Shown piece by piece: positions 1-14,090 of a stretch of DNA of 64,000 nucleotides. The first letter of the stretch is position 1, and each line of letters begins with the position of its first letter. Under the pieces are notes generated by a model. It was not told where the DNA came from, made no database searches, and saw only the letters and a program-made list of their open reading frames with translations. Made by a program: the position numbers and the translations under genes. This DNA comes from Candidatus Hadarchaeales archaeon (lineage in GTDB: Archaea; Hadarchaeota; Hadarchaeia; Hadarchaeales; WYZ-LMO6). The DNA lies in assembly GCA_038736355.1 (NCBI GenBank), contig JAVYML010000003.1, forward strand, positions 22,093 to 86,092. Direction: 5' to 3'.

Positions 1-565
1 AGCCGGTGCTTTGGACGGCATTGCTGCCGCCATACCCCAAAGTTGAGGTAGCAAACCGCGGGGTCGATATGGACTCTCGCCCGCGACCACTCTGTTATCC
101 CCGGGGTACCTTTTCTGTCATCCGGAGCCCTCACCAAGAGGGACATCCGGGTTCGCTAGGCCCGGCTTTCGCCCCTGCGCGCCTTGGTAGTGAGCGCGCA
201 GTCAGGCCGGCTTTTGGCCTTGTCCTTGGCGGCGGAGTTCTGACCCGCCTAAGCCGACCTTTGGACCCCCTCGATATCTTTTCGAGGGGCTGCCGCCCCA
301 GCGAAACTGCCCACCTGCCGTTGTCCCCCTGACGGGGTTAGGGGCACGGTTAGGAGTGGGCGGTGTTACATCGGCGCCTCCGCCGGACCCGAAGATCCGG
401 CTTCCACGGCTCCCGCCTACCCTCTGCACCCGCAACCGCGTCCCAGCGACAGGCTGCAGTAAAGGTCCACGGGGTCTTCGTTTCCCTTCGGGGGACCCCG
501 GCATGTTCGCCGGCAAGCGGGTTCACCGGGTTGCAGGCCGGGACAGTGGGGGGCTCGTTGATTCC

Positions 566-597
<32 letters not shown>

Positions 598-602
598 TTA
601 CG

Positions 603-1304
603 CTACCTTAAGCTCCCTTCCTCACATGTCGGAAGGTGGACCATATCATCGCCCTCCTCGGGCGCCTGGCGTATGGTCTCTGAGGATCCCCCTTCAACGA
701 GCCTTTCCAGTTTTTCCCTCTTTTCGGGATGTCTGAATCCTATGGCATCCCTGAACTTTTTCACTCTCTCCAAGCCTTTTATGACCAGCGAGAACTGCGG
801 ATTTTTCCCCCATGCCCTCGGTTTTTTGACGGAAATCGCACTTTCAATCCCTGCTTCCAGAAGAATTCCATGTAGCTGTCCGATGAGAGGCCTGGCGATC
901 ATGTCGATCCCGACATATGGATAGCTGTAGGTTTTTCCCCCATGCTTTTGTTTGTCGACTCCACAGTAGCCTTCTGCATCGAAGAGCCCCCTTGCCACCT
1001 CCAGCCTTGAGACTTTGTCCTCCGTGAAAGTCTTCGGAATTCTGAGGGTGGTGAGTTTCCTTCCCTTCGGGTACCCGATTTTCACGAAGAACTTATGGAT
1101 ATCCTTGCGGTTGGTACTGACTATCCAACAGTTCGGCGAACCCCTGTTCACCCTCGGCTTGAAGTTGAAGATCCTTTCGACGGTCTTTGCGATGCTTTCC
1201 GCAAATTCCCTGTTCTTATCCCTGCAAAACACCGTGTACGAATTTCCATAGACACCTCCGTCACCGAGCATTACACCAACGAGGTAAGCTAGGGACTCTG
1301 TCAT
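603..1304 (-). CDS. LAGLIDADG homing endonuclease (intron-encoded). The ORF runs 9 nt into the downstream exon.
   Basis: Two LAGLIDADG-type motifs are present (LAYLVGVMLGDGGV and RGLFDAEGYCG). The start is chosen at the Met just before the first motif (MTESLAYLVG). The long ORF-track version (to 1523) extends into exon sequence and is not used. Confidence 0.7.
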   Translation of the reverse strand: MTESLAYLVGVMLGDGGVYGNSYTVFCRDKNREFAESIAKTVERIFNFKPRVNRGSPNCWIVSTNRKDIHKFFVKIGYPKGRKLTTLRIPKTFTEDKVSRLEVARGLFDAEGYCGVDKQKHGGKTYSYPYVGIDMIARPLIGQLHGILLEAGIESAISVKKPRAWGKNPQFSLVIKGLERVKKFRDAIGFRHPEKREKLERLVEGGSSETIRQAPEEGDDMVHLPTCEEGSLR

Positions 1305-1463
1305 CACTGTCGATTTAAGAGGGACTCTGTTATTTCGTTTCCGGCCCTCTGGGGTTTCCTGCGGGTCGACCTCATCGGAGATGGACTTTGTTACCCTTTT
1401 TCGGGTAGCCCATCTCCCCTCACGTCTTCCCCGCATACAGCCAGGTTTTACAACCCCCTTCTC
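612..1463 (-). mobile_element. rRNA intron (archaeal type) encoding a LAGLIDADG homing endonuclease, inserted near E. coli 23S position ~1925-1927
   Basis: Removing 612..1463 restores the conserved 23S sequence ...GGGGGTAACTATAACCCTC/TTAAGGTAGCGTAATACCTTGCCG. The intron interior carries the endonuclease ORF. Boundaries are good to within a few nt. Confidence 0.75.
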
Positions 1464-3599
1464 GAGGGTTATAGTTACCCCCGCCCATTGGCGGCGCTTC
1501 GGCCGGTTGTACCCGGCTTTCACGTACCGCCTGTAGGCAGAATTCAGCTCCCGTACTCACCCTTTCGGGCTAGCGGGAACCTACGTTTTTATTAAACAGT
1601 CGGCCCCCCCTGGTCACTGCGACCTGCCCTCCGCAGGGCAGGCACCCCTTCTCCCGAAGTTACGGGGCCAACTTGCCGAATTCCCTGGCCTGCTGTCTCC
1701 CGTCACACCTTAGGCTTCTCACCTAGGGGCACCTGTGTCGGATCTAGGTACGGTCACCCAGGATCCCATTTCCGGTCCCCCTTTTCACGGGCCCCGGAGA
1801 TGAACCGAACCCGCCTAACGGCAGGCCCATCCCGCCCTCATCCGGTTCTCTCCATTACGGAACTCCCCGGACTTCGACGGTTGGATGGGGCGACGGCCCC
1901 ACTCGGTCTGCCCCGAGGCGTCGGAGGACCGGCCTGCGTTGCCGCCGGTACCTGGGTGGTTCCGGAATATTAACCGGATTCCCTTTCGGCGGCCTCTGGT
2001 TGAGGGCCGCCTCAGGACCGACTAACCCTCGGCTGACGACCATTGCCGAGGAACCCGGGCCCCTTCGGCGGTGGGGATTCTCACCCCACTAGGCTGTTAC
2101 TACCACCAGGATCCTCGTTCCCACGCGGTCCACCCGACCTCACGGCCGGGCTTCTCCCCACGCGGGACGCCCCCCTACCGGATCAGGCTACTGAACTTCG
2201 CCTGCCCCGGGGTCTCGGCAGCTGGCTTAAGCCCCGTTCATCTTCGGTGCCCCCACCCTCGACGGGTCCGCTTTTACGCGTTGTTTAAAGGGTGGCTGCT
2301 TCTGAGCCTACCTCCCCGCTGTCTCAGGGTGGAGACGCCCTTTGGATTTCTGCACTTAGCCAGCATTTGGGGGCCTTAACCCCGGTCTGGGTTGTTCCCC
2401 TCTCGGAGCGGGAGCTTACCCCCCGCACCCCGTCTCCGGCGGTCTACGGCGCCGGTCGCTTCGGAGTTCGACAGCGAGGGCAAGGGTTTCCCCCTGTCAC
2501 CCCGCAATCGGTGCTCTACACGACCGGCTACCTCGCGCCGGGCCTGACTGCGGCCAGCTTCGGGGGGAACCAGCTGTCACCGGGCTTGATGGGTCTTTCG
2601 CCACTAGCCCAGGGTCATCCGACCGAATTGCACGTCAAGACCGGTTCGGCCCTCCACCCCATAGAGGGGCTTCAGCCTGCCCTGGACTAGATCGCCCGGT
2701 TTCGGGTCTCACCGCCGTGACTCCGGGCGCTGTTAACACCCCGTCCCTCGCCCTTTCGGGCTGCGGACCGTCGCTTTCGCTCCGGCTCCGGGGTTTCAAC
2801 CCCTTAACCTCGCCACGACGGTGAACTCCCTGGCCCGTGATTCAAGACGGACGGTACGACCCCGATCCCCCTCCCTCGTACCACCGCCTCACGGCGGCTT
2901 CCTTCGGGAGGGCTCACCTCTTTCGAGCCGTACCTTACTGTCGCCACCTGGTTTCAGGCTCTTTTCACCCCCCTTCCGGGGTACTTTTCAGCTTTCCCTC
3001 GCGGTACTGCGTTCGCTATCGGTCTCGAGACGTATTTAGGGTTGGGAGTTGGTGCCTCCCAGCTTCGGACGCCAATCCCAAGGCGCCCTACTCAGGATCC
3101 CTCCCCTCGTATCCTGCACAGTTACCCCTACGGGGCTTTCACCCTCTACGGCGCGCCATTCCAGGCGACTTCGGGTTCCCGTGCGAGGAATTGGGGGAGG
3201 TCCTACAACTCCACATCCCCGACGACTTTCGCCGCCGGGTTCGGTTTGCCCTGTGCCCTCTTCACTCGCCGTTACTGAGGGCATCGCTTTTGCTTTCTCT
3301 TCCTCCCGGTACTGAGATGTTTCACTTCCCGGGGTTCCCGTTCGCAGCTCCCAAAAGAGCCGCGAACGCAGGGGGTTAACCCCTGCAGGATTCCCATTCG
3401 GTGATCCCGGGTTCTACGGCTGCCTGCGCCTCGCCCGGGCTTTTCGCAGCTTGCCACGACCTTCTTCGGCGCTCGAGCCGAGCCATCCCCCAGGTGGCTT
3501 GGTTCCCCGCTCGACGGCTTCCGGACCTGTGCCTGGCCTCATCAGCTTTTAGCCTGAGCCCTTCGCGCGAGAAGCGCTCTCTCTTCCCGCGCTGCATGC

Positions 3600-3674
3600 T
3601 GGTGGACCCGCCGGGATTCGAACCCGGGGCCTTCGGCTTGCAAAGCCGACGCTCTACCACTGAGCTACGGGCCC
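3600..3674 (-). tRNA. tRNA-Ala (anticodon UGC), CCA encoded, in the 16S-23S spacer
   Basis: Reverse complement folds as GGGCCCG-TA-GCTCAGTGGTAGAGC-G-TCGGC-TTTGCAA-GCCGA-AGGCC-CCGGG-TTCGAAT-CCCGG-CGGGTCC-A-CCA. The G3:U70 alanine identity pair is present and the anticodon is TGC. Confidence 0.9.
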
Positions 3675-3706
3675 AAGAGAAGTCCGGGCCTCCGCCAGAT
3701 ATATAC

Positions 3707-5190
<1,484 letters not shown>

Positions 5191-5458
5191 GGTGGCCGCA
5201 AGACCTTTAGGCGGAGGCCTCGGACCTCTCTCGGACCCGAACTCTCCAGTGGCCTGGGTTTTTCGGGCCCACATACTGATTCCACACCCGGAATTCGACC
5301 CTTCATCGCTGGTTAAACACCCGGCTCCCGGCCGACGCCTTGAGGGTGTGGAGCCAATAGTATGTAAGGGAGAAGCCATACTTAAGGCTTGTCCTGAAAG
5401 GAATCCGCCGGGGGTTCTCTGGGACGGTTCTTTATCCTCTGGGGAAAAAAGAGGGGAA

Positions 5459-6133
5459 ATGGATCAGGAAATAGATGTTTCCGTGGTCGTCCCCACCTAC
5501 AACGAGGCTGGAAATCTCCCTCCCTTGATCAGGCGGTTGGCAAGGGCCTTGAGGGGCAGGAGGTGGGAAGTGGTGGTGGTGGATGATGGTTCCCCAGATG
5601 GTACGGGGAAGGTAGCGGAGATCTTGGCCAGGAAGTATCCTGTCAGGCTGGTTCAGCGTGGGAAGAGGGGTGGTCTCTCCTCTGCAGTGGTGGAAGGATG
5701 GCGGCATGCGGGAGGCAGGGTCCTGGTGGTGATGGATGCCGATCTCCAGCATCCACCCGAGCTGGTTCCAGAGCTGGTGATGAAAGTGGAGGAGGGGAAC
5801 GATTTGGTCCTGGCCTGCAGGACGCGATGGGTGGGATGGAGGGGGGCTGCCTCCAAGTTGATGGGCGAACTGGTGAGGACCCTTTTGCACCTTCCCGTGC
5901 GGGATCCCCATTCGGGCTTCTTCGCCCTACGCCGGGTGGTTGGGAGGATAAAACCGAGGGGGTACAAAATCCTCCTGGAATGTCTGGTGAGGGGGAGGTA
6001 CAGAAGGGTGGCTGAAGTTTTCTACTCCCAAGGGAAAAGGAAATGGGGGAGGAGCAAATGGGGGGTGAGGGAGGGGTGGGAGTACCTGCGGCAGCTTCTG
6101 GATCTCTTAGGGTATTCAAAGGGGGGAAGATGA
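5459..6133 (+). CDS. Family 2 glycosyltransferase (dolichyl-phosphate mannose/glucose synthase-like)
   Basis: VSVVVPTYNEAGNL...VVVVDDGSPDGT...VMDADLQHPPE are GT2 / Dpm1-type motifs. The ATG at 5459 is chosen because the longer ORF (from 5192) would overlap the 16S 5' end. Confidence 0.85.
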   Translation: MDQEIDVSVVVPTYNEAGNLPPLIRRLARALRGRRWEVVVVDDGSPDGTGKVAEILARKYPVRLVQRGKRGGLSSAVVEGWRHAGGRVLVVMDADLQHPPELVPELVMKVEEGNDLVLACRTRWVGWRGAASKLMGELVRTLLHLPVRDPHSGFFALRRVVGRIKPRGYKILLECLVRGRYRRVAEVFYSQGKRKWGRSKWGVREGWEYLRQLLDLLGYSKGGR

Positions 6134-9383: not shown

Positions 9384-10072
9384 GTTTTTCCATAAGAAGG
9401 GAGCTGAGGGAGAGCGTGGAGTTCCTGATCCGTCCTGGGAAGGTGATGGAGGGGATGGGGATGCTCCCCCTTTCCTTCTCCCTTCCCTTCCTCTTCATCC
9501 TGCGTTATTTCCACTTCTACCTCCATGGTCTGCTGGTCCATCTCCCCTTTTACCGCGCCGAGTATCCCAACCTCCTTTCCTTTTTCTGGCATGAGTTCGA
9601 TCTTTGGCAGGGTTTCCTCCTCCCCGCAGCCCTCTTCTCGCTCTCAGCCGTCCTCTGGTGGATCGGGAGAGTGATGGGGAGGGAGGTGGACTACAGGATG
9701 GCGGAGCACGGAGCTTTTCACGTGCTCGTGGCGGGAGTTCTCCTGGTTCCCTTCGACGCCATCCATCTCTGGTTGTCCCCCACCTATTTCTGGGGGCACT
9801 GCATGCACCTTTCCCTGCTCCTTCAGTTGCTTCTCCTCCCCTATTGGATGAGCGTGTGGGCGGAGAAGTCTCTTGGGGTGAAGAAGAGATACTCTTTCCT
9901 CCCTTCTCTCCTTTTTCCCCTCTCCATCAAGTACGCTGACTGGCTAGTCTTCTCCCCGCCCTTCTTCCTCCTGCTCGCCTACCTTGTTCTCACCCTTTTT
10001 TTCCTCACCGGGGAGAGAGAAAGGTTGGGGGTGGCACTTGGTCTTTCCCTCTGTCTCTGGCTGTTTGGCTGA
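9380..10072 (+). CDS. Polytopic integral membrane protein of unknown function
   Basis: ATG at 9380 overlaps the GT4 stop (ATGA). About 6 predicted TM helices and no motif I recognise. Sits between GT4 and the radical SAM gene. Confidence 0.55.
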   Translation: MSFSIRRELRESVEFLIRPGKVMEGMGMLPLSFSLPFLFILRYFHFYLHGLLVHLPFYRAEYPNLLSFFWHEFDLWQGFLLPAALFSLSAVLWWIGRVMGREVDYRMAEHGAFHVLVAGVLLVPFDAIHLWLSPTYFWGHCMHLSLLLQLLLLPYWMSVWAEKSLGVKKRYSFLPSLLFPLSIKYADWLVFSPPFFLLLAYLVLTLFFLTGERERLGVALGLSLCLWLFG

Positions 10073-10088
10073 GCTGCTGTATCGAGTG

Positions 10089-11000
10089 ATGAGCAGACCA
10101 CCCTTCTGCCATCTTTTCCGTCTCTGGTACCTGAAACGCCGGCTTCTCCCCCGTCCCCACTTCATCCTCTTTCCCACCTTCAGATGCAATTATTACGGGA
10201 GATGCCCTTACTGCCACCTCTTGGACATGGGTTTCCCCCGCCTCTACCCGGAGGACCTGTCCGTGGAGAAGGCCGTGGATTCCTTCCTCCGCTTTTCCGA
10301 TTCGGAGCTGGACGTGTCGGGAGGGGAGCCCTTCCTCTGGCGGGGAATCAGGGAATTCGTGGAAGAGGTGGGGAAGGAGAACAGGGTGGGTGTGACCACC
10401 AACCTCTCCTGGGAGGTGGAGAGGGAGAGGGAATGGCTATCCGGTTTCAGCTCCATAACGGCCAGCTATCATCCCGAGGCGGTTGGGTTGGAGGAGTTCT
10501 TGAAAAAAGTGGTGCTGCTCCGCTCCATCCATCCAAAGGTGAAGGTAAACGTGGTGGCCTATCCCCCTCTCCTCCATCGGGTGGGGGAGGCGGTGGAGAG
10601 GTTCAGGAGGGAGGGAATTTTCGTCCACGTGGATCCCTATCTCTCCCCCTACACCAAGGGAGAAAGGGAATGGGTGAGGCTTCTCTTGGTGAGCAAGAGG
10701 AAGGTGGAGTTCCCGCCGGCGGGCCTGAAGAAATGCGATGCGGGCAGAAGACATTTCGTGGTCCTGCCCGATGGGAGCGTCTACACCTGCTGGAACGGAT
10801 GCATGCTGGAACACCTCCTAGGCCCTTCCGTGCTGGGGCGTTCCTACCGGTTAGGGAATTTGCTGGAAGGTACTTTCTCTCCCTTGCGGGAGGAACTCGA
10901 ATGTTGGCTCCCCTGTTCTGCCGGCTGCGATTTGGACTATGTGAAGCAGCGAACCATCACAGAGGTTAAATCCATGGGGAAAGAGAGGATGGATTGGTGA
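10089..11000 (+). CDS. Radical SAM/SPASM-domain protein (putative peptide/protein maturase) with a non-canonical CX5CX2C cluster motif
   Basis: FRCNYYGRCPYC is followed by DVSGGEPFLW (SAM-binding GGE). C-terminal Cys-rich region CWNGC...CWLPCSAGCD is typical of SPASM/twitch auxiliary clusters. The stop TGA 10998-11000 overlaps the start of the next gene. Confidence 0.8.
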   Translation: MSRPPFCHLFRLWYLKRRLLPRPHFILFPTFRCNYYGRCPYCHLLDMGFPRLYPEDLSVEKAVDSFLRFSDSELDVSGGEPFLWRGIREFVEEVGKENRVGVTTNLSWEVEREREWLSGFSSITASYHPEAVGLEEFLKKVVLLRSIHPKVKVNVVAYPPLLHRVGEAVERFRREGIFVHVDPYLSPYTKGEREWVRLLLVSKRKVEFPPAGLKKCDAGRRHFVVLPDGSVYTCWNGCMLEHLLGPSVLGRSYRLGNLLEGTFSPLREELECWLPCSAGCDLDYVKQRTITEVKSMGKERMDW

Positions 11001-13933
11001 GGGCCTTTGCGGAGGTGGCGGCCGGGGCGGCGCTCCTTCTCTCCCTCCTTCTCCTTTCCCCGCTCAGTGCCCTCACTTTCACGGACACCATCAACGCCGA
11101 TTTCGCCCAGGGAATCCACGAGAACACGGAGAACGTGAACGACGACCTCAGGCTCAAGGTAGGCTACCTGCAGGGCAGGTTCACCTCAAGGGTCTTCGAC
11201 GCGGGGCAGTTACAAGTCTGGGATACCCTTTCCTGGAATGCCACCCTTCCCACCCTCATGGTGAGCGTGGAGAACGACAACGTGGGGGCGGAGCCCACCA
11301 CGCTGGTGGACGGGACCGTCAGGATGGGGAGGATTACGGGGGGCTCCCTCTTGGACACCCGTACGGCGAACGGGGTTTACGAAAATATAACGGAGGAGGC
11401 GGGAGCCCCCTACGGGGGGATGGTGAACCTCATTCTCTTCTGGGATGGAGCCTCCATCCCCTCCGGCTGGACCTGCATCTCCGATGATGCGGGGGAACCC
11501 TTTTACTACAGGTTTCCCATGGGGGGATCTACCTACGGGAGCACGGGAGGAACGGAGACCCACACCCACTCCAGCACCTCCTCCTGCGGGGGTCCCTCCG
11601 CCACCCTCCAGAGGAACTCGGGAAGTGCCGTGACCACCGCCACCAGTACCCACACCCACACTCCGACCGTCACCGTTGCCACCGAAAATCATCTCCCCCC
11701 CTACTACGACCTGAAGGTGATCAGGTACAACTCCGGGATTCCCTCCATCCTGCCGGCGGGCGTGATAGCCCTTTTCCCCTCCACCTCCCTCCCCCCGGGC
11801 TGGTCCCTCTACACGGCGGCGGATAACCGCTTCCTCAGGGGGGCCCCTTCGGCAGGGGGTATGGGGGGAAACCCCACCCACACCCATAGCGTGAGCGTGA
11901 GCACTGGGGGCCCCTCCTCTACGGTCGGGCTGGCCACGGACCCCTGTGATGACTCCACCGCTTATCCCACCAGCACCCACACCCACACCGGGTCGGGTAC
12001 CACCTCGTCCGCCACCAACCTTCCACCCTACATAACGGTGGTCCTGGGCAAGGCCGGCTCCGACACCCCTATACCCGGGGGGATGATAGGGATGTTCGAC
12101 GGCATTCCAAGCGGTAACTGGACGGTTCTCCCATCCTTCAACGGGAGGTTCCCGATGGAGAACCTCACCGCCGGATACGGGGTCACGGGAGGGAGCTCCA
12201 CCCACAACCATTCCGACCTGAGTATTACCACCGGGACGGGTGCCACCGCTTCGGCCAACCTGGATGCGGGAACCGCCGTCACCTTCGCCAGCGGTACCCA
12301 CACCCACACCGTCACGGTTTCCTTCACCGAGAGCTCCCACCTTCCCCCTTACGTCACGGTGATCTTCGCCCAGGCCACCTGCGGGCTCCGCTGGCAGCAG
12401 AACATAGAGAATGTTACGACGGGCTACTCCAACTACCAGCTGCAGGTGAAGGGTAAGACGAGCGGTGATTCCGAAAATGTGAGGGTATACGTGTGGAAGA
12501 GCGGCGAAAACTCCTGGGAGTACGTGGGGGACCTCACGGGAACTGAAACGACCCTCACTAAGAACATCCCAGCTTCGGAGCTTTCCTCCTACCTGAGCGG
12601 GACCAGCCTGCTGGTCAAGTACGAGTCGGCAGACAACACAGATCTCTCCCCCACCACCCTTCATGTGGACCTCTGCATACTGGTGGAGGGTGTGCTTTAC
12701 CAGAGCTACGTGAAGTTCAGGGTTAAGGTAAGTGCCGATGGCTCAACATGGAGTGAGGAGCTTGGTCCAGACGGCACCCCCAACACCTTCTTCACTTCCT
12801 CCCCCGCCAACCTGGATACCATTCCGGAAAACCGGTACATCCGCTACGTGGCGTACCTCTCCAGTGAGCATTCCCAGCTCACGGGTGCCAACGGTCCAAA
12901 GGTACACGATGTGACCATCACCTCCCTCACCGCCGGACAGGCCAACGTGTTCACCATGGAGGCCGAGAACGTGGGGTGGGAGAGTGCCACCCTCACCGCC
13001 AGGCTCCTCTACGTGGATCCAACTGCGGTGGTGAGGTTCCAGTACATGCCGGAGGGTGGCACTTGGGTGAGCACCCCCTGGAAAAGCTGGCAGGGAAGCT
13101 GGTACTGGTATCCACTCACGGGCCTGCAGGAGAACAAGAAGTACTACTTCCAGGCGCAGGTGAGATACGGCGGACAGGTCTATGGGGGTGGAATCAGAAC
13201 CTTCAAAACCCTCTCCAGCAAGCCCTATGCCATCACCCTGAAGGCCACGGAGGTGGACAACTCCTCCGCCGTGCTCAACGCCAGGATTTACTACGCCAAC
13301 TACGACAGCGTGAGCATAAGGTTCTGGTACCAGAAGGATGGGGTCTGGACGGCCACCCCTCTCGTTTCCGGCTACAGGGGCACCACCTACAGCTACAGGG
13401 TCACGGGCCTTACCGCGAACACGCTCTACTACTTCAAGGCCGAAATCACCTACGATTCCACGTCCGAGAACGCCAACGTGGAGACCTTCACCACCTTCTC
13501 CTCCAAGACCACCGGCATGGCCTACGATGGTGGTATGGGCTTTGGTTCCTACCCTTCGGGCTGGCATGGGGTAAGGATGACCCCGCCTTCCGGTACGACG
13601 GGTCTGAAACTGGAGCTCCTCACCTCTTCATCCTTCTCCGCCCATCACACCCTTCGGGTGGTGAGGGACAACGGGGAGCTGCTTTACGCGGGCCACGTCC
13701 TCTCCGACAACGGGAGGAGCAAGGTGGTGAGCGTGAGGTTCTGGAAGAGCACGGCTGGGGAGAGCGTGTACGTGGAGCTTTACGATCCCTACGGTTTCGC
13801 CTACAGGACCAAGGGCACCAAGGCCTCCCTAGGAGGGGCCACATACGCCTATTCCTATCTGGACCGTGCCGGAAAGAACCTGAAGTACTACGACAGGGCT
13901 TGCGGCGTGAACGTGCTAGAGATTTACACGTGA
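10994..13933 (+). CDS. Large secreted protein (979 aa) with signal peptide, three tandem phage tail-collar-like repeats carrying six HxH motifs, then FN3-like beta-sandwich domains
   Basis: N-terminus VRAFAEVAAGAALLLSLLLLSPLSALT is a signal peptide. Three ~100-aa repeats run from aa ~143 to ~456. Each has a PxGW core, a first HxH (THTHS / THNHS), a second THTHT about 40 residues later, and a closing (N/H)LPPY(Y/I/V)(D/T)(L/V)(K/V)(V/I)I. The C-terminal half has FN3-like endings (YYFQAQVRYGG...IRTFKT and YYFKAEITYD...VETFTT). The start is TTG/GTG at 10994/10997; no ATG is in frame. Confidence 0.8.
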   Translation: MVRAFAEVAAGAALLLSLLLLSPLSALTFTDTINADFAQGIHENTENVNDDLRLKVGYLQGRFTSRVFDAGQLQVWDTLSWNATLPTLMVSVENDNVGAEPTTLVDGTVRMGRITGGSLLDTRTANGVYENITEEAGAPYGGMVNLILFWDGASIPSGWTCISDDAGEPFYYRFPMGGSTYGSTGGTETHTHSSTSSCGGPSATLQRNSGSAVTTATSTHTHTPTVTVATENHLPPYYDLKVIRYNSGIPSILPAGVIALFPSTSLPPGWSLYTAADNRFLRGAPSAGGMGGNPTHTHSVSVSTGGPSSTVGLATDPCDDSTAYPTSTHTHTGSGTTSSATNLPPYITVVLGKAGSDTPIPGGMIGMFDGIPSGNWTVLPSFNGRFPMENLTAGYGVTGGSSTHNHSDLSITTGTGATASANLDAGTAVTFASGTHTHTVTVSFTESSHLPPYVTVIFAQATCGLRWQQNIENVTTGYSNYQLQVKGKTSGDSENVRVYVWKSGENSWEYVGDLTGTETTLTKNIPASELSSYLSGTSLLVKYESADNTDLSPTTLHVDLCILVEGVLYQSYVKFRVKVSADGSTWSEELGPDGTPNTFFTSSPANLDTIPENRYIRYVAYLSSEHSQLTGANGPKVHDVTITSLTAGQANVFTMEAENVGWESATLTARLLYVDPTAVVRFQYMPEGGTWVSTPWKSWQGSWYWYPLTGLQENKKYYFQAQVRYGGQVYGGGIRTFKTLSSKPYAITLKATEVDNSSAVLNARIYYANYDSVSIRFWYQKDGVWTATPLVSGYRGTTYSYRVTGLTANTLYYFKAEITYDSTSENANVETFTTFSSKTTGMAYDGGMGFGSYPSGWHGVRMTPPSGTTGLKLELLTSSSFSAHHTLRVVRDNGELLYAGHVLSDNGRSKVVSVRFWKSTAGESVYVELYDPYGFAYRTKGTKASLGGATYAYSYLDRAGKNLKYYDRACGVNVLEIYT

Positions 13934-14029
13934 TGGGGCCAGGGCCGGGAGCTCCGCCGGTCTTACCGGATTCGAACCCGGGTCACGGGATCCACAGTCC
14001 CGGATGCTGACCGCTACACCACCCTGGCC
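13934..14029 (-). tRNA. tRNA-His (anticodon GUG) with encoded G-1 and CCA, and a probable ~20-nt non-canonical intron in the T-arm
   Basis: Reverse complement is G-GCCAGGG-TG-GTGTAGCGGTCAGCAT-CGGGA-CTGTGGA-TCCCG-TGAC-CCGGG-TTCGAAT-CC[GGTAAGACCGGCGGAGCTCC]CGG-CCCTGGC-C-CCA. A canonical T-stem forms only if the bracketed ~20 nt are spliced out. Confidence 0.75.
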
Positions 14030-14090
14030 ATTTTTCTGGGAAAAGATGAGGTAAAAAAGGATGGGATTGACGCGGGTTCTAAAAGTGGTG

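What the first reader, a model, noticed from the sequence alone, without database searches (positions are those of the whole stretch)
11420..12362. Three tandem ~100-aa phage tail-collar-like repeats with six HxH motifs in an archaeal secreted protein
Each repeat reads roughly PxGW...F.RG.P...GG..TH(T/N)HS...(~40 aa)...THTHT...(N/H)LPPY(Y/I/V)(D/T)(L/V)(K/V)(V/I)I. This mirrors the bacteriophage tail-fibre collar domain consensus (..GW..cdG...LPDLRGRF..GG..H.H..NMPPYL.LNYII). HxH motifs in phage fibres (T4 gp12/gp37) bind metal ions along a trimer axis. Triplication inside one polypeptide, followed by FN3-like domains, suggests a pseudo-trimeric metal-binding adhesin or fibre module. That architecture would be unusual for an archaeal surface protein and may have been acquired from a virus.
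Basis: partly seen in the sequence, partly recalled or inferred. Interest (0 to 1): 0.65.

Follow-up and report, generated by a model that had tools for sequence, protein, structure and literature searches.

The report
Single-chain triple phage-fibre-tip module
A secreted protein of a Hadarchaeal archaeon carries three tandem copies of a domain otherwise found once at the tip of phage tail fibres, so one chain probably mimics a fibre trimer; the same unannotated module occurs in thousands of surface proteins of uncultured bacteria and archaea.

Summary
Gene 10994-13933 (+) encodes a 979-aa protein with a signal-like N-terminus. It holds three ~107-aa repeats (aa 140-466) and six HxH motifs.

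No Pfam, NCBIfam or PDB sequence hit reaches significance. Profile-profile comparison nevertheless links the repeat to three things:
- single-copy C-terminal domains of phage tail fibres (99.8%, E 1e-29);
- triple repeats in tail proteins Pas28 and Pas29 of Actinoplanes phage phiAsp2 (99.3%);
- more weakly, the canonical tail-collar family PF07484/PF21939 (74%, P 3e-5), from which it differs by loss of the ~30-aa helix segment.

Every complete homologue examined has repeats in sets of three. Each repeat position is orthologous across phyla. AlphaFold2 folds the module as one confident all-beta body (pLDDT 92.8, pTM 0.85). The 12 histidines are 88-99% conserved, and the segment between the two HxH motifs is the variable part.

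Best reading: an intramolecular pseudo-trimer of a fibre-tip domain, probably stapled by two axial metal ions, acting as a ligand-binding head. Metal binding and His geometry were not testable here.

The gene is chromosomal and syntenic, so recent viral acquisition is not supported. The module family is large (3,675 representative clusters) and undescribed in the sources I could search. I rate it a new variant of a known kind.

The parts
10994..13933 (+). Gene for the 979-aa secreted protein (TTG start, TGA stop)
   Evidence: ORF list. A 100%-identical protein and 60-82% full-length orthologs exist. Cluster mates are named Hadesarchaea/Hadarchaeales hypothetical protein.
10994..11074 (+). N-terminal hydrophobic signal-like segment (aa 1-27)
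   Evidence: It is the only Kyte-Doolittle hydrophobic stretch in the protein. Orthologs converge on the mature start ..TFTDT. That it is cleaved is inferred.
11075..11395 (+). N-terminal domain (aa 28-134) that pairs with the post-module domain in paralogs
   Evidence: phmmer shows this region together with aa 455-645 flanking different inserts in P0006-10, P0021, P0022 and P0030. AF2 confidence here is low.
11411..11743 (+). Repeat 1 of the collar-like fibre-tip module (aa 140-250)
   Evidence: hhalign to phage fibre tips gives 99.8%.
11744..12064 (+). Repeat 2 (aa 251-357)
12065..12391 (+). Repeat 3 (aa 358-466)
11561..11569 (+). HxH #1 of repeat 1 (H190-T-H192)
   Evidence: His is 88% conserved over 216 modules.
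11651..11659 (+). HxH #2 of repeat 1 (H220-T-H222)
   Evidence: His is 97-99% conserved.
11879..11887 (+). HxH #1 of repeat 2 (H296-T-H298)
   Evidence: His is 93-94% conserved.
11978..11986 (+). HxH #2 of repeat 2 (H329-T-H331)
   Evidence: His is 98% conserved.
12203..12211 (+). HxH #1 of repeat 3 (H404-N-H406)
   Evidence: His is 88-93% conserved.
12299..12307 (+). HxH #2 of repeat 3 (H436-T-H438)
   Evidence: His is 99% conserved.
12392..12928 (+). Post-module beta domain(s) (aa 467-645), shared with paralogs that lack the module
   Evidence: AF2 pLDDT is 55-83 and the region is mostly beta.
12941..13498 (+). Two FN3-like domains (aa 650-835)
   Evidence: AF2 pLDDT is 75-95. Foldseek against the PDB hits FN3 tandems at E 2e-9 to 1e-7. 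There is a weak Pfam Pur_ac_phosph_N hit.
13511..13930 (+). C-terminal domain (aa 840-979), unassigned
   Evidence: It is conserved in P0002-P0010. The AF2 model is low-confidence and there is no family hit.

Best explanation
Residues 140-466 form one rigid all-beta module built from three diverged tandem copies of a phage tail-fibre tip domain. This domain is a helix-less variant of the tail-collar family.

In phage fibres the domain occurs once per chain, at the very C-terminus, and three chains assemble around a threefold axis. Here the three copies are in one polypeptide and pack as an intramolecular pseudo-trimer (inferred).

Each copy contributes two HxH motifs. By analogy with T4 gp12 and gp37, the three 'first' HxH and the three 'second' HxH would each form a six-histidine octahedral site on the pseudo-threefold axis. 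That gives two buried metal ions (Fe/Zn) stapling the module (inferred, not shown).

The ~27-residue segment between the two HxH motifs is the variable part of each copy, and in relatives it accepts whole inserted domains. It corresponds to the place where T4 gp12 carries its receptor-binding insertion. These three loops or hairpins are therefore the likely ligand-binding surface (inferred).

The module is a swappable cassette. It sits between an N-terminal domain and a beta/FN3 stalk of a Sec-exported protein, so the whole protein most likely works as a cell-surface or secreted adhesin / glycan- or cell-recognition protein of the Hadarchaeon.
For: Repeats and motifs are real.

Homology:
- A profile of 120 repeats against single-copy C-terminal domains of IMG/VR tail-fibre proteins gives hhalign 99.8%, E 1.4e-29, full length. 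One such contig carries a tape-measure gene, an integrase and PHROG tail-fibre hits.
- Against the phiAsp2 Pas28/29 repeats: 99.3%, E 4.8e-20.
- Pas repeats against a profile of 120 PF07484+PF21939 proteins: 96.2%, E 2.6e-9. The archaeal-type repeats directly: 74.3%, P 2.7e-5.
- The closing strand aligns LPPY..V to NLQPYIVLNYI at P 1e-3.
- Reversed and column-shuffled controls score 5-18, against 29-59 for the collar and Pas-versus-collar matches (110-163 for the matches to Pas repeats and fibre tips).
- Foldseek of the AF2 model against BFVD finds Pas28/29 at E 3e-15 to 6e-15 with TMq 0.60-0.63. Pas29 is annotated in GenBank as a possible receptor-recognising protein with HxH motifs.

Pseudo-trimer:
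- 46 homologues have exactly 3 contiguous repeats and 9 have 2x3. The apparent exceptions are truncated, or have a domain inserted inside repeat 2.
- Nearly all of the best 150 of 3,675 representative hits match the whole triple module in register.
- Same-position repeats are 36-39% identical across proteins, against 29-31% between positions. 116 of 120 nearest neighbours are at the same position.
- The AF2 module has pLDDT 92.8 and pTM 0.85, with the same strand pattern in each repeat. It is again above 90 in the full-length model.

Metal:
- The 12 His are 88-99% conserved over 216 modules, and the HxH#2 set 97-99%.
- In T4 gp12, Zn lies on the threefold axis, bound by His445/His447 of three chains (PMC3004832). 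In gp37, HxH motifs bind seven Fe (PMC11705849).

Variable loops: the inter-HxH segments carry 1.2 bits, against 2.3-2.5 bits in the frame.

Surface protein: signal-like N-terminus and FN3 tandem.
Against: - No Pfam, NCBIfam or PHROG hit to collar or fibre families for this protein. Among 40 members the best Collar E-value is 0.61, and Gp10_C reaches 1.3e-4 in only 2.
- HMMER profiles find no solved structure.
- Foldseek against the PDB finds nothing for the module.
- The direct hhalign link to the canonical collar is only 44-74% and covers about 49 columns.
- Coordinates of the AF2 model could not be read, so neither the pseudo-threefold packing nor the clustering of histidines was verified.
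- Loss of HxH#1 motifs is not correlated between repeats: the observed distribution roughly equals the expectation under independence. That test therefore gives no positive support for a shared site.
- No ligand, metal or localisation data exist.
- The protein has no recognisable cell-wall or membrane anchor.
Confidence: 0.6

Rival explanations
1. Beads on a string. The three repeats are independent, separately folding domains, as FN3 or Ig repeats are, and serve only as a spacer or stalk. The HxH motifs would be local features with no shared site.
For: Tandem repeats in surface proteins usually behave this way. The protein also carries FN3 repeats. There is no correlated loss of HxH between repeats. 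The packing could not be inspected.
Against: - The copy number is always 3 or 6, never 1, 2, 4 or 5, in complete proteins.
- Each position is an ortholog class.
- Single-copy relatives sit at the C-terminus of phage fibre proteins. Such proteins are trimeric by established knowledge.
- pTM of 0.85 for a 334-aa three-repeat unit is not what flexible beads give. The full-length protein, by contrast, has pTM 0.42.
Confidence: 0.12
2. Provirus or virus-derived fibre gene. The ORF would be the receptor-binding protein of an integrated or recently captured archaeal virus, not a cellular surface protein.
For: The domain family is rooted in phage tail fibres.
Against: - The neighbours are an rRNA operon, glycosyltransferases, UbiA, acetyl-CoA synthetase, RNase P RNA, ThrRS and SRP54. 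No capsid, terminase or integrase gene was seen among the neighbours scanned.
- The same gene order is kept around an 82%-identical ortholog.
- The protein has a signal peptide and an FN3 stalk, like cellular relatives in many phyla.
- tblastn of the module against 50,697 phage genomes finds nothing, and only phiAsp2 has the Pas-type triple module.
Confidence: 0.05
3. The histidines serve chemistry rather than structure. The HxH pairs would form a catalytic or redox metal centre, for example a copper or nickel site acting on a substrate or scavenging metal. The module would then be an enzyme or metallophore-like binder rather than an adhesin.
For: There are twelve highly conserved His. A radical SAM/SPASM-like gene overlaps the start of the gene. 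Phage HxH fibres have been proposed as iron ligands in the ocean (PMC11705849).
Against: - In the solved relatives the HxH metals are buried and structural (PMC3004832).
- No other catalytic-type residues are conserved: the invariant set is G, P, W, H, Y.
- The variable part lies between the HxH motifs, as in receptor-binding tips.
- The radical SAM neighbour is conserved only in the Hadarchaeal locus.
Confidence: 0.08

Closest known systems
Phage tail collar domain / MdpB-like proteins (Pfam PF07484 Collar + PF21939 Gp10_C), e.g. T4 gp12 short tail fibre (PDB 1OCY) and Anabaena phage A-1(L) long tail fibre (PDB 8KEC)
   Same: The order of elements is the same: a first strand (G.I..F.G), the P.GW motif, then RG(R)F..G, then G.tGG..H, then HxH, a variable insert, and a closing strand (PY..l..I) that ends the domain. 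hhalign gives 74% (P 2.7e-5) directly and 96% through the Pas repeats. HxH motifs bind an axial metal in gp12.
   Different: About 30 residues of the collar are deleted: the helix plus 'GDGsTTFnlPD'. No Pfam hit reaches threshold. The canonical proteins carry one copy per chain and form homotrimers. Here three diverged copies lie in one chain, in a cellular secreted protein.
Unnamed helix-less fibre-tip domain at the C-terminus of uncultured phage tail fibres (IMG/VR contigs L009-L016; PHROG 8469 / 5795 'tail fiber / tail protein')
   Same: It is the same domain over its full length, with the same motifs (IPSGlIamFd..CPaGWTR..lDnrFP.G...GG..tH.H ... HtH ... PPY..VvFC.K). hhalign gives 99.8%, E 1.4e-29.
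   Different: It occurs as a single copy per chain and ends the protein. It sits in phage tail modules next to tape-measure genes. Contig L009 has three tandem genes with one copy each, a possible heterotrimer stage.
Pas28 and Pas29 of Actinoplanes phage phiAsp2 (AY576796)
   Same: Both carry three tandem copies in one chain. Foldseek gives E 3e-15 to 6e-15 and TMq 0.60-0.63 to the AF2 module. hhalign gives 99.3%. Pas29 is annotated as a possible receptor-recognising protein with HxH motifs.
   Different: They are phage tail proteins. They have four HxH per repeat (three in heptad spacing) instead of two. Some of their repeats keep the collar-like 'CDG..PDM' motif. Their repeats do not fall into the position classes of the cellular modules, so the triplication may be independent (weak evidence).

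Membership tests
Pfam PF07484 (Phage tail collar domain) | Match to the family HMM above the gathering threshold | tested here: not met
   There is no Collar hit for the 979-aa protein even at E<=10. Among 40 module sequences, one hits at E 0.61.
Pfam PF07484 (Phage tail collar domain) | N-terminal strand plus the P.GW motif, followed by RGRf..G and G..GG..H, in that order | tested here: met
   hhalign of the repeat profile against 120 PF07484+PF21939 proteins gives prob 74.3%, P 2.7e-5, over 49 columns in this register. Shuffled controls score 18 or less, against 33.6 observed.
Pfam PF07484 (Phage tail collar domain) | Alpha-helix and 'yGgdGsttF.lPDL' loop between the GW motif and RGR | tested here: not met
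   The hhalign alignment places a gap of about 30 columns here. The AF2 model has no helix in any repeat apart from one 3-residue turn.
Pfam PF07484 / PF21939 (collar + Gp10_C) | Closing C-terminal strand (N.QPY..LNYII) separated from the rest by a variable insert | tested here: inconclusive
   'snLPpY..vi' aligns to 'HNNLQPYIVLNYI' at P 1e-3 with score 16.7, against shuffles of 14 or less. Gp10_C hits 2 of 40 members at best E 1.3e-4.
Pfam PF07484 / T4 gp12-like fibres | Three copies of the domain assembled around a threefold axis | not testable with these tools
T4 gp12 / gp37-type HxH metal sites | HxH from each of three chains coordinating one axial Fe/Zn ion octahedrally | not testable with these tools
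   The motifs are present and 88-99% conserved. Geometry and metal content were not examined. The test for correlated loss was uninformative.
Helix-less phage fibre-tip domain (unnamed; IMG/VR fibres, PHROG 8469-like) | Full-length profile-profile match from the first strand to the closing strand | tested here: met
   hhalign gives 99.8%, E 1.4e-29, over 101 aligned columns.
Helix-less phage fibre-tip domain (unnamed; IMG/VR fibres, PHROG 8469-like) | Single copy ending the polypeptide of a phage tail-fibre protein | tested here: not met
   Here there are three internal copies in a chromosomal, signal-peptide-bearing protein. The PHROG scan of the protein gives no tail-fibre family.
Fibronectin type III (downstream domains) | FN3 beta-sandwich fold | tested here: met
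   Foldseek of the full-length model finds FN3 tandems at E 2e-9 to 1e-7 with about 200 aligned columns. At sequence level there is only a weak Pur_ac_phosph_N hit.

The most novel reading that the evidence does not exclude
The triple module is an undescribed, widespread receptor-binding head. It would be a phage fibre tip that was fused into a single chain once, long ago. Fusion freed the three binding loops to diverge independently while two axial metal ions kept the frame rigid. Uncultured prokaryotes then deployed it on their own surfaces, especially episymbiotic Patescibacteria and DPANN, but also Chloroflexota, methanogen relatives and Hadarchaeota. There it would recognise partner cells or polymers in the way that phages recognise hosts.
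Probability: 0.3. Interest if true: 0.75.

Novelty: new variant of a known kind. Interest (0 to 1): 0.6.

Why it matters
If the reading is right, three things follow.
- It gives a concrete, testable example of a homotrimeric viral receptor-binding domain converted into a single-chain pseudo-trimer. The series of stages is visible in sequence data: a single copy at phage fibre tips, three tandem one-copy genes in one phage contig, and fused triple copies in phage phiAsp2 and in thousands of cellular proteins.
- It names and delimits a large domain family that current Pfam, NCBIfam and PHROG models leave blank. The family has 3,675 clusters at 50% identity and often sits in giant surface proteins.
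- It points to candidate host- or substrate-recognition heads in CPR and DPANN episymbionts and in deep-subsurface archaea, where attachment mechanisms are largely unknown.

It is also a compact, probably very stable, metal-stapled scaffold with three independently variable loops.

Tried and rejected
- Pfam, PHROGs and NCBIfam scans of the protein gave no relevant hit.
- phmmer and profile searches of PDB sequences with the protein, the module alignment and the viral+Pas alignment gave nothing, or a spurious uL3 hit.
- Foldseek of the module against the PDB had no hit with E<=1e-3. This is expected, because single chains of intertwined trimers cannot match a fused pseudo-trimer.
- tblastn of the module against 50,697 phage genomes found no match. 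The Pas29 module found only phiAsp2 itself.
- A test for correlated loss of HxH#1 across the three repeats, which a shared metal site might predict, gave an observed distribution roughly equal to the independence expectation. It is uninformative.
- The search for related loci with the 40-sequence alignment failed for lack of a conserved stretch. It worked with a 6-sequence alignment.
- A word-indexed search with a viral single-copy domain found only one relative.
- Literature searches for phiAsp2/Pas29, for pseudo-trimeric or single-polypeptide fibres, and for tail-fibre-like CPR surface proteins found no description of this module.
- Linkage to the upstream radical SAM/SPASM-like gene is kept only in the Hadarchaeal ortholog locus, so it is not part of the module's general system.
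- No second copy or paralog lies in the window.
- Model coordinates are not exposed to scripts, so His-His distances could not be measured.
Full report
**1. The observation**

The finding lies inside one long ORF, window 10994-13933 on the + strand. It encodes 979 aa with a TTG start. Translation shows six HxH motifs at aa 190, 220, 296, 329, 404 and 436. It also shows three LPPY motifs at aa 234, 343 and 450.

Aligning the three segments gives 24 invariant columns. Pairwise BLASTP between the repeats gives E 4e-9 to 3e-19, at 36-63 bits. Shuffled sequences reach 19.6 bits at most.

A repeat HMM places the units at aa 142-248, 251-357 and 358-464. All nucleotide coordinates in the parts list were re-translated and checked.

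**2. Organism and neighbourhood**

The window carries archaeal 23S and 16S rRNA and archaeal RNase P RNA. Proteins in the same 90% cluster are named Hadesarchaea / Candidatus Hadarchaeales 'hypothetical protein'.

The neighbours are ordinary chromosomal genes:
- Upstream: GT2, UbiA, GT4, a membrane protein and a radical SAM/SPASM-like protein.
- Downstream: acetyl-CoA synthetase, NAD(P)HX dehydratase, acyl-CoA dehydrogenase, a 2-oxoacid:ferredoxin oxidoreductase, ThrRS and SRP54.

The same order surrounds an 82%-identical ortholog on another contig. Nothing among the neighbours scanned looks viral.

The protein has one hydrophobic segment, at aa 1-31, and no other. Orthologs converge on a mature N-terminus ..TFTDT. 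It is therefore very probably Sec-exported. No anchor was recognised.

**3. No database family covers the repeats**

Pfam, PHROGs and NCBIfam give nothing relevant for the protein. HMMER against all PDB sequences gives nothing either, whether the query is the protein, a 40-sequence module profile, or a viral/phage profile.

Scanning 40 module sequences individually against Pfam gives only marginal hits. Gp10_C (PF21939) appears in two members, with best E 1.3e-4. Collar (PF07484) appears in one, at E 0.61.

**4. Homologues show that the unit is a set of three**

The first homology search found 70 proteins.
- Full-length orthologs share 60-82% identity.
- A group of Hadarchaeal paralogs (P0006-P0010, P0021, P0022, P0030) shares the N-terminal domain (aa ~18-140) and the region after the repeats (aa ~455-645 or to the end). 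They carry a different insert in place of the repeats. The module is thus a swappable cassette.
- Many proteins from Chloroflexota/Dehalococcoidales, Patescibacteria and Methanobacteriota share only the repeat region.

With a single-repeat HMM, 46 proteins have exactly three contiguous repeats and 9 have two sets of three. The apparent exceptions fall into two groups. Some are truncated at a contig end. Others (P0034, P0048, P0058) have a whole glycine-rich domain inserted between the first and second HxH of repeat 2, which splits that repeat. No complete protein has 1, 2, 4 or 5 copies.

An exhaustive HMMER search of 1.84 billion representatives with the module profile finds 3,675 clusters at E<=1e-3 and 580 at E<=1e-30. 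Nearly all of the best 150 match the whole triple module in register. Many of these are giant proteins, up to 7,246 aa. Ten of them have no Pfam domain on the module.

A scan of GTDB species genomes finds the full module in a range of lineages, all MAGs:
- Chloroflexota;
- Saccharibacteria, Paceibacterota, Lloydbacteria and Parcubacteria;
- an Actinobacteria MAG;
- Methanocellales, Methanobacteriota and Woesearchaeota.

Repeats at the same position in different proteins are 36-39% identical. Different positions within one protein are 29-31% identical. For 116 of 120 repeats the nearest neighbour in another protein is at the same position. The triplication is therefore old and the three positions have become non-equivalent. 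A fixed pseudo-trimer would show this pattern, and a freely expanding repeat array would not.

**5. Structure prediction**

AlphaFold2 on the 40-sequence module alignment gives mean pLDDT 92.8 and pTM 0.85. All five models score at least 82.9. The prediction is all-beta, with the same succession of strands in each repeat. In the full-length model the module is again above 90, while the protein as a whole has pTM 0.42. The three repeats are thus predicted as one rigid body within a flexible multi-domain protein.

I could not verify the pseudo-threefold axis or the positions of the histidines, and this is the main gap in the analysis.

Foldseek against the PDB finds nothing for the module. That is expected, because a fused pseudo-trimer cannot match a single chain of an intertwined trimer.

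Foldseek against predicted viral structures does find strong matches:
- Pas28 of Actinoplanes phage phiAsp2: E 3e-15, TMq 0.60.
- Pas29 of the same phage: E 6e-15, TMq 0.63.
- Much weaker hits to an Aeromonas phage tail fibre and to a 'phage tail collar domain containing protein'.

For the rest of the protein, Foldseek on the full-length model confirms two FN3 domains at aa ~650-835, with E 2e-9 to 1e-7. The N-terminal domain and the last 140 residues are modelled poorly.

**6. Links to phage fibres**

*(a) phiAsp2.* Genes pas28 and pas29 follow pas27, which is annotated as the putative major tail protein. Pas29 is annotated 'possible receptor recognizing protein; contains HXHY motifs; similar to phage TuIa tail fiber'. 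Both proteins hold three tandem repeats with four HxH each. Some repeats keep 'W.LCDG..G.PDM..F.R', a shortened form of the collar 'GW..CDG...LPDLRGRF'. hhalign of the 120-repeat profile against the six Pas repeats gives 99.3%, E 4.8e-20, full length.

*(b) Canonical collar.* I collected real collar proteins in two ways. Six came from phage genomes. A further 120 proteins carry PF07484+PF21939.

| Query profile | Against the rich collar profile | Source |
|---|---|---|
| Pas repeats | 96.2%, E 2.6e-9 | |
| Archaeal-type repeats | 74.3%, P 2.7e-5 | |
| The two combined | 85.6% | |

The closing strand aligns separately, 'snLPpY..vi' to 'HNNLQPYIVLNYI', at P 1e-3 with score 16.7. Reversed and column-shuffled profiles score 5-18. 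The observed scores are 29-59 for the collar and Pas-versus-collar matches, and 110-163 for the matches to Pas repeats and fibre tips. The T/S/G/H-rich composition therefore does not explain the matches.

Solved relatives of the canonical family include T4 gp12 (1OCY) and the A-1(L) long tail fibre (8KEC).

*(c) Single-copy fibre tips.* A scan of IMG/VR found eight viral contigs. In seven of them a ~430-660-aa fibre-like protein ends with exactly one copy of the same helix-less domain..IPSGLIAMFD..CPAGWTR..LDNRFP.G...GG..TH.H ... HTH ... PPY..VVFC.K*. hhalign of the repeat profile against these tips gives 99.8%, E 1.4e-29, over 101 columns.

The eighth contig, L009, has three consecutive ~215-aa genes with one copy each. 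They lie after a tape-measure gene and before an integrase, and they hit PHROG tail and tail-fibre families. This looks like a heterotrimer stage between homotrimer and fusion.

Among 50,697 isolated phage genomes, tblastn of the module finds nothing. Only phiAsp2 shows the Pas-type triple form.

**7. Histidines and variable parts**

Conservation over 216 in-register modules:

| Residue set | Conservation |
|---|---|
| Six His of the second HxH set | 97-99% |
| Six His of the first HxH set | 88-94% |
| The three Trp | 95-100% |
| First Pro of LPPY | 98-100% |

The ~27-residue segment between the two HxH motifs is the least conserved part of every repeat, at 1.2 bits against 2.3-2.5 bits. It is also where relatives accept inserted domains. 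In the collar family the corresponding region is the variable insert between the N-terminal part and the closing strand, visible as the variable block in my collar alignment. From my own knowledge of the Pfam PF07484 description and the gp12 structure papers, which I did not read here, that insert forms the receptor-binding head in gp12.

In T4 gp12 a Zn ion sits on the threefold axis, bound by His445 and His447 of all three chains (PMC3004832). In gp37, HxH motifs bind seven iron ions (PMC11705849). Three repeats with two HxH each would give two such six-His sites. This is an inference.

A test for correlated loss of the first HxH among repeats showed no excess over independence. It neither supports nor refutes a shared site.

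**8. Mechanism proposed**

Shown here:
- three tandem diverged copies of a phage fibre-tip domain;
- copy number fixed at three, with position-specific orthology;
- a confident single-body prediction;
- very high His conservation;
- variable inter-HxH segments;
- a signal-like N-terminus and an FN3 stalk;
- a chromosomal, syntenic gene.

Inferred:
- The three copies pack around a pseudo-threefold axis, as three chains do in fibres.
- Two axial metal ions staple them.
- The three variable hairpins form an asymmetric ligand-binding face.
- The protein is an adhesin or recognition protein on or near the cell surface.

Three rival readings are listed with their evidence: independent beads, a proviral fibre, and catalytic metal sites. 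I consider each of them much less likely.

**9. Comparison, novelty and verdict**

The module works like a phage receptor-binding tip. It does not qualify as a PF07484 member by the family's own HMM and it lacks the helix segment, so I do not file it there. It belongs with an unnamed helix-less tip domain of uncultured phage fibres, and differs from that domain by being triplicated in one chain of a cellular protein.

I found no description of this arrangement in Pfam, NCBIfam, PHROGs or the searchable literature. I rate it a new variant of a known kind.

Nor is the architecture special to archaea: the family is large and mostly bacterial (CPR) or DPANN.

Interest is 0.6. The homology and the sets-of-three rule are solid and the family is large and unannotated, but the pseudo-trimer geometry, the metal binding and the function remain untested.

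Noticed in passing
window 603-1523 (-), within the 23S rRNA gene (window 1-3514, -): A 306-aa ORF with LAGLIDADG-type motifs (LVGVMLGDGG, GLFDAEGY) lies inside the LSU rRNA gene. The Rfam LSU match spans 3,514 nt for only 2,647 model positions. This suggests an rRNA intron encoding a homing endonuclease.
   Followed up: partly
window 13958-14023 (-): An Rfam tRNA match sits just at threshold (29.8 bits against 29), 25 nt after the stop codon of the gene. ARAGORN does not report it. It could be a degenerate or intron-containing tRNA, or a chance hit.
   Followed up: no
L009 7694-8338, 8370-9023, 9059-9727 (IMGVR_UViG_3300035659_000059): Three consecutive ~215-aa phage genes each carry one copy of the repeat. 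They lie between a tape-measure gene (3062-5701) and an integrase (12908-14071). This may be a heterotrimeric intermediate between homotrimeric fibre tips and the fused triple module.
   Followed up: partly
P0048 aa 244-560 and 1003-1323; P0058; P0034 aa 787-1332: In some Patescibacteria proteins a whole glycine-rich domain of ~190-420 aa is inserted between the first and second HxH of repeat 2. The triple frame tolerates large insertions at the variable site.
   Followed up: partly
window 9984-11000 (+) and L008 6998-7978: A radical SAM/SPASM-like ORF overlaps the start of the surface-protein gene by 7 nt (weak Pfam hits, E 8e-6 and 1e-3). It is conserved upstream of the Hadarchaeal ortholog but not next to modules in other phyla. 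Whether it modifies the protein is unknown.
   Followed up: partly
P0006-P0010, P0021, P0022, P0030 versus window protein aa 18-140 and 455-645: Hadarchaeal paralogs keep the N-terminal domain and the post-module domain but carry unrelated inserts of 320-600 aa in place of the triple module. The two flanking regions may form a host scaffold for exchangeable heads. Some of these proteins carry a precomputed PF27237 hit. That family is absent from the local Pfam copy, and I could not identify it.
   Followed up: partly
P0011-P0019 (e.g. P0013 aa 45-367 and 549-869): A group of ~1,265-aa proteins carries two complete triple modules per chain, separated by ~180 aa.
   Followed up: no
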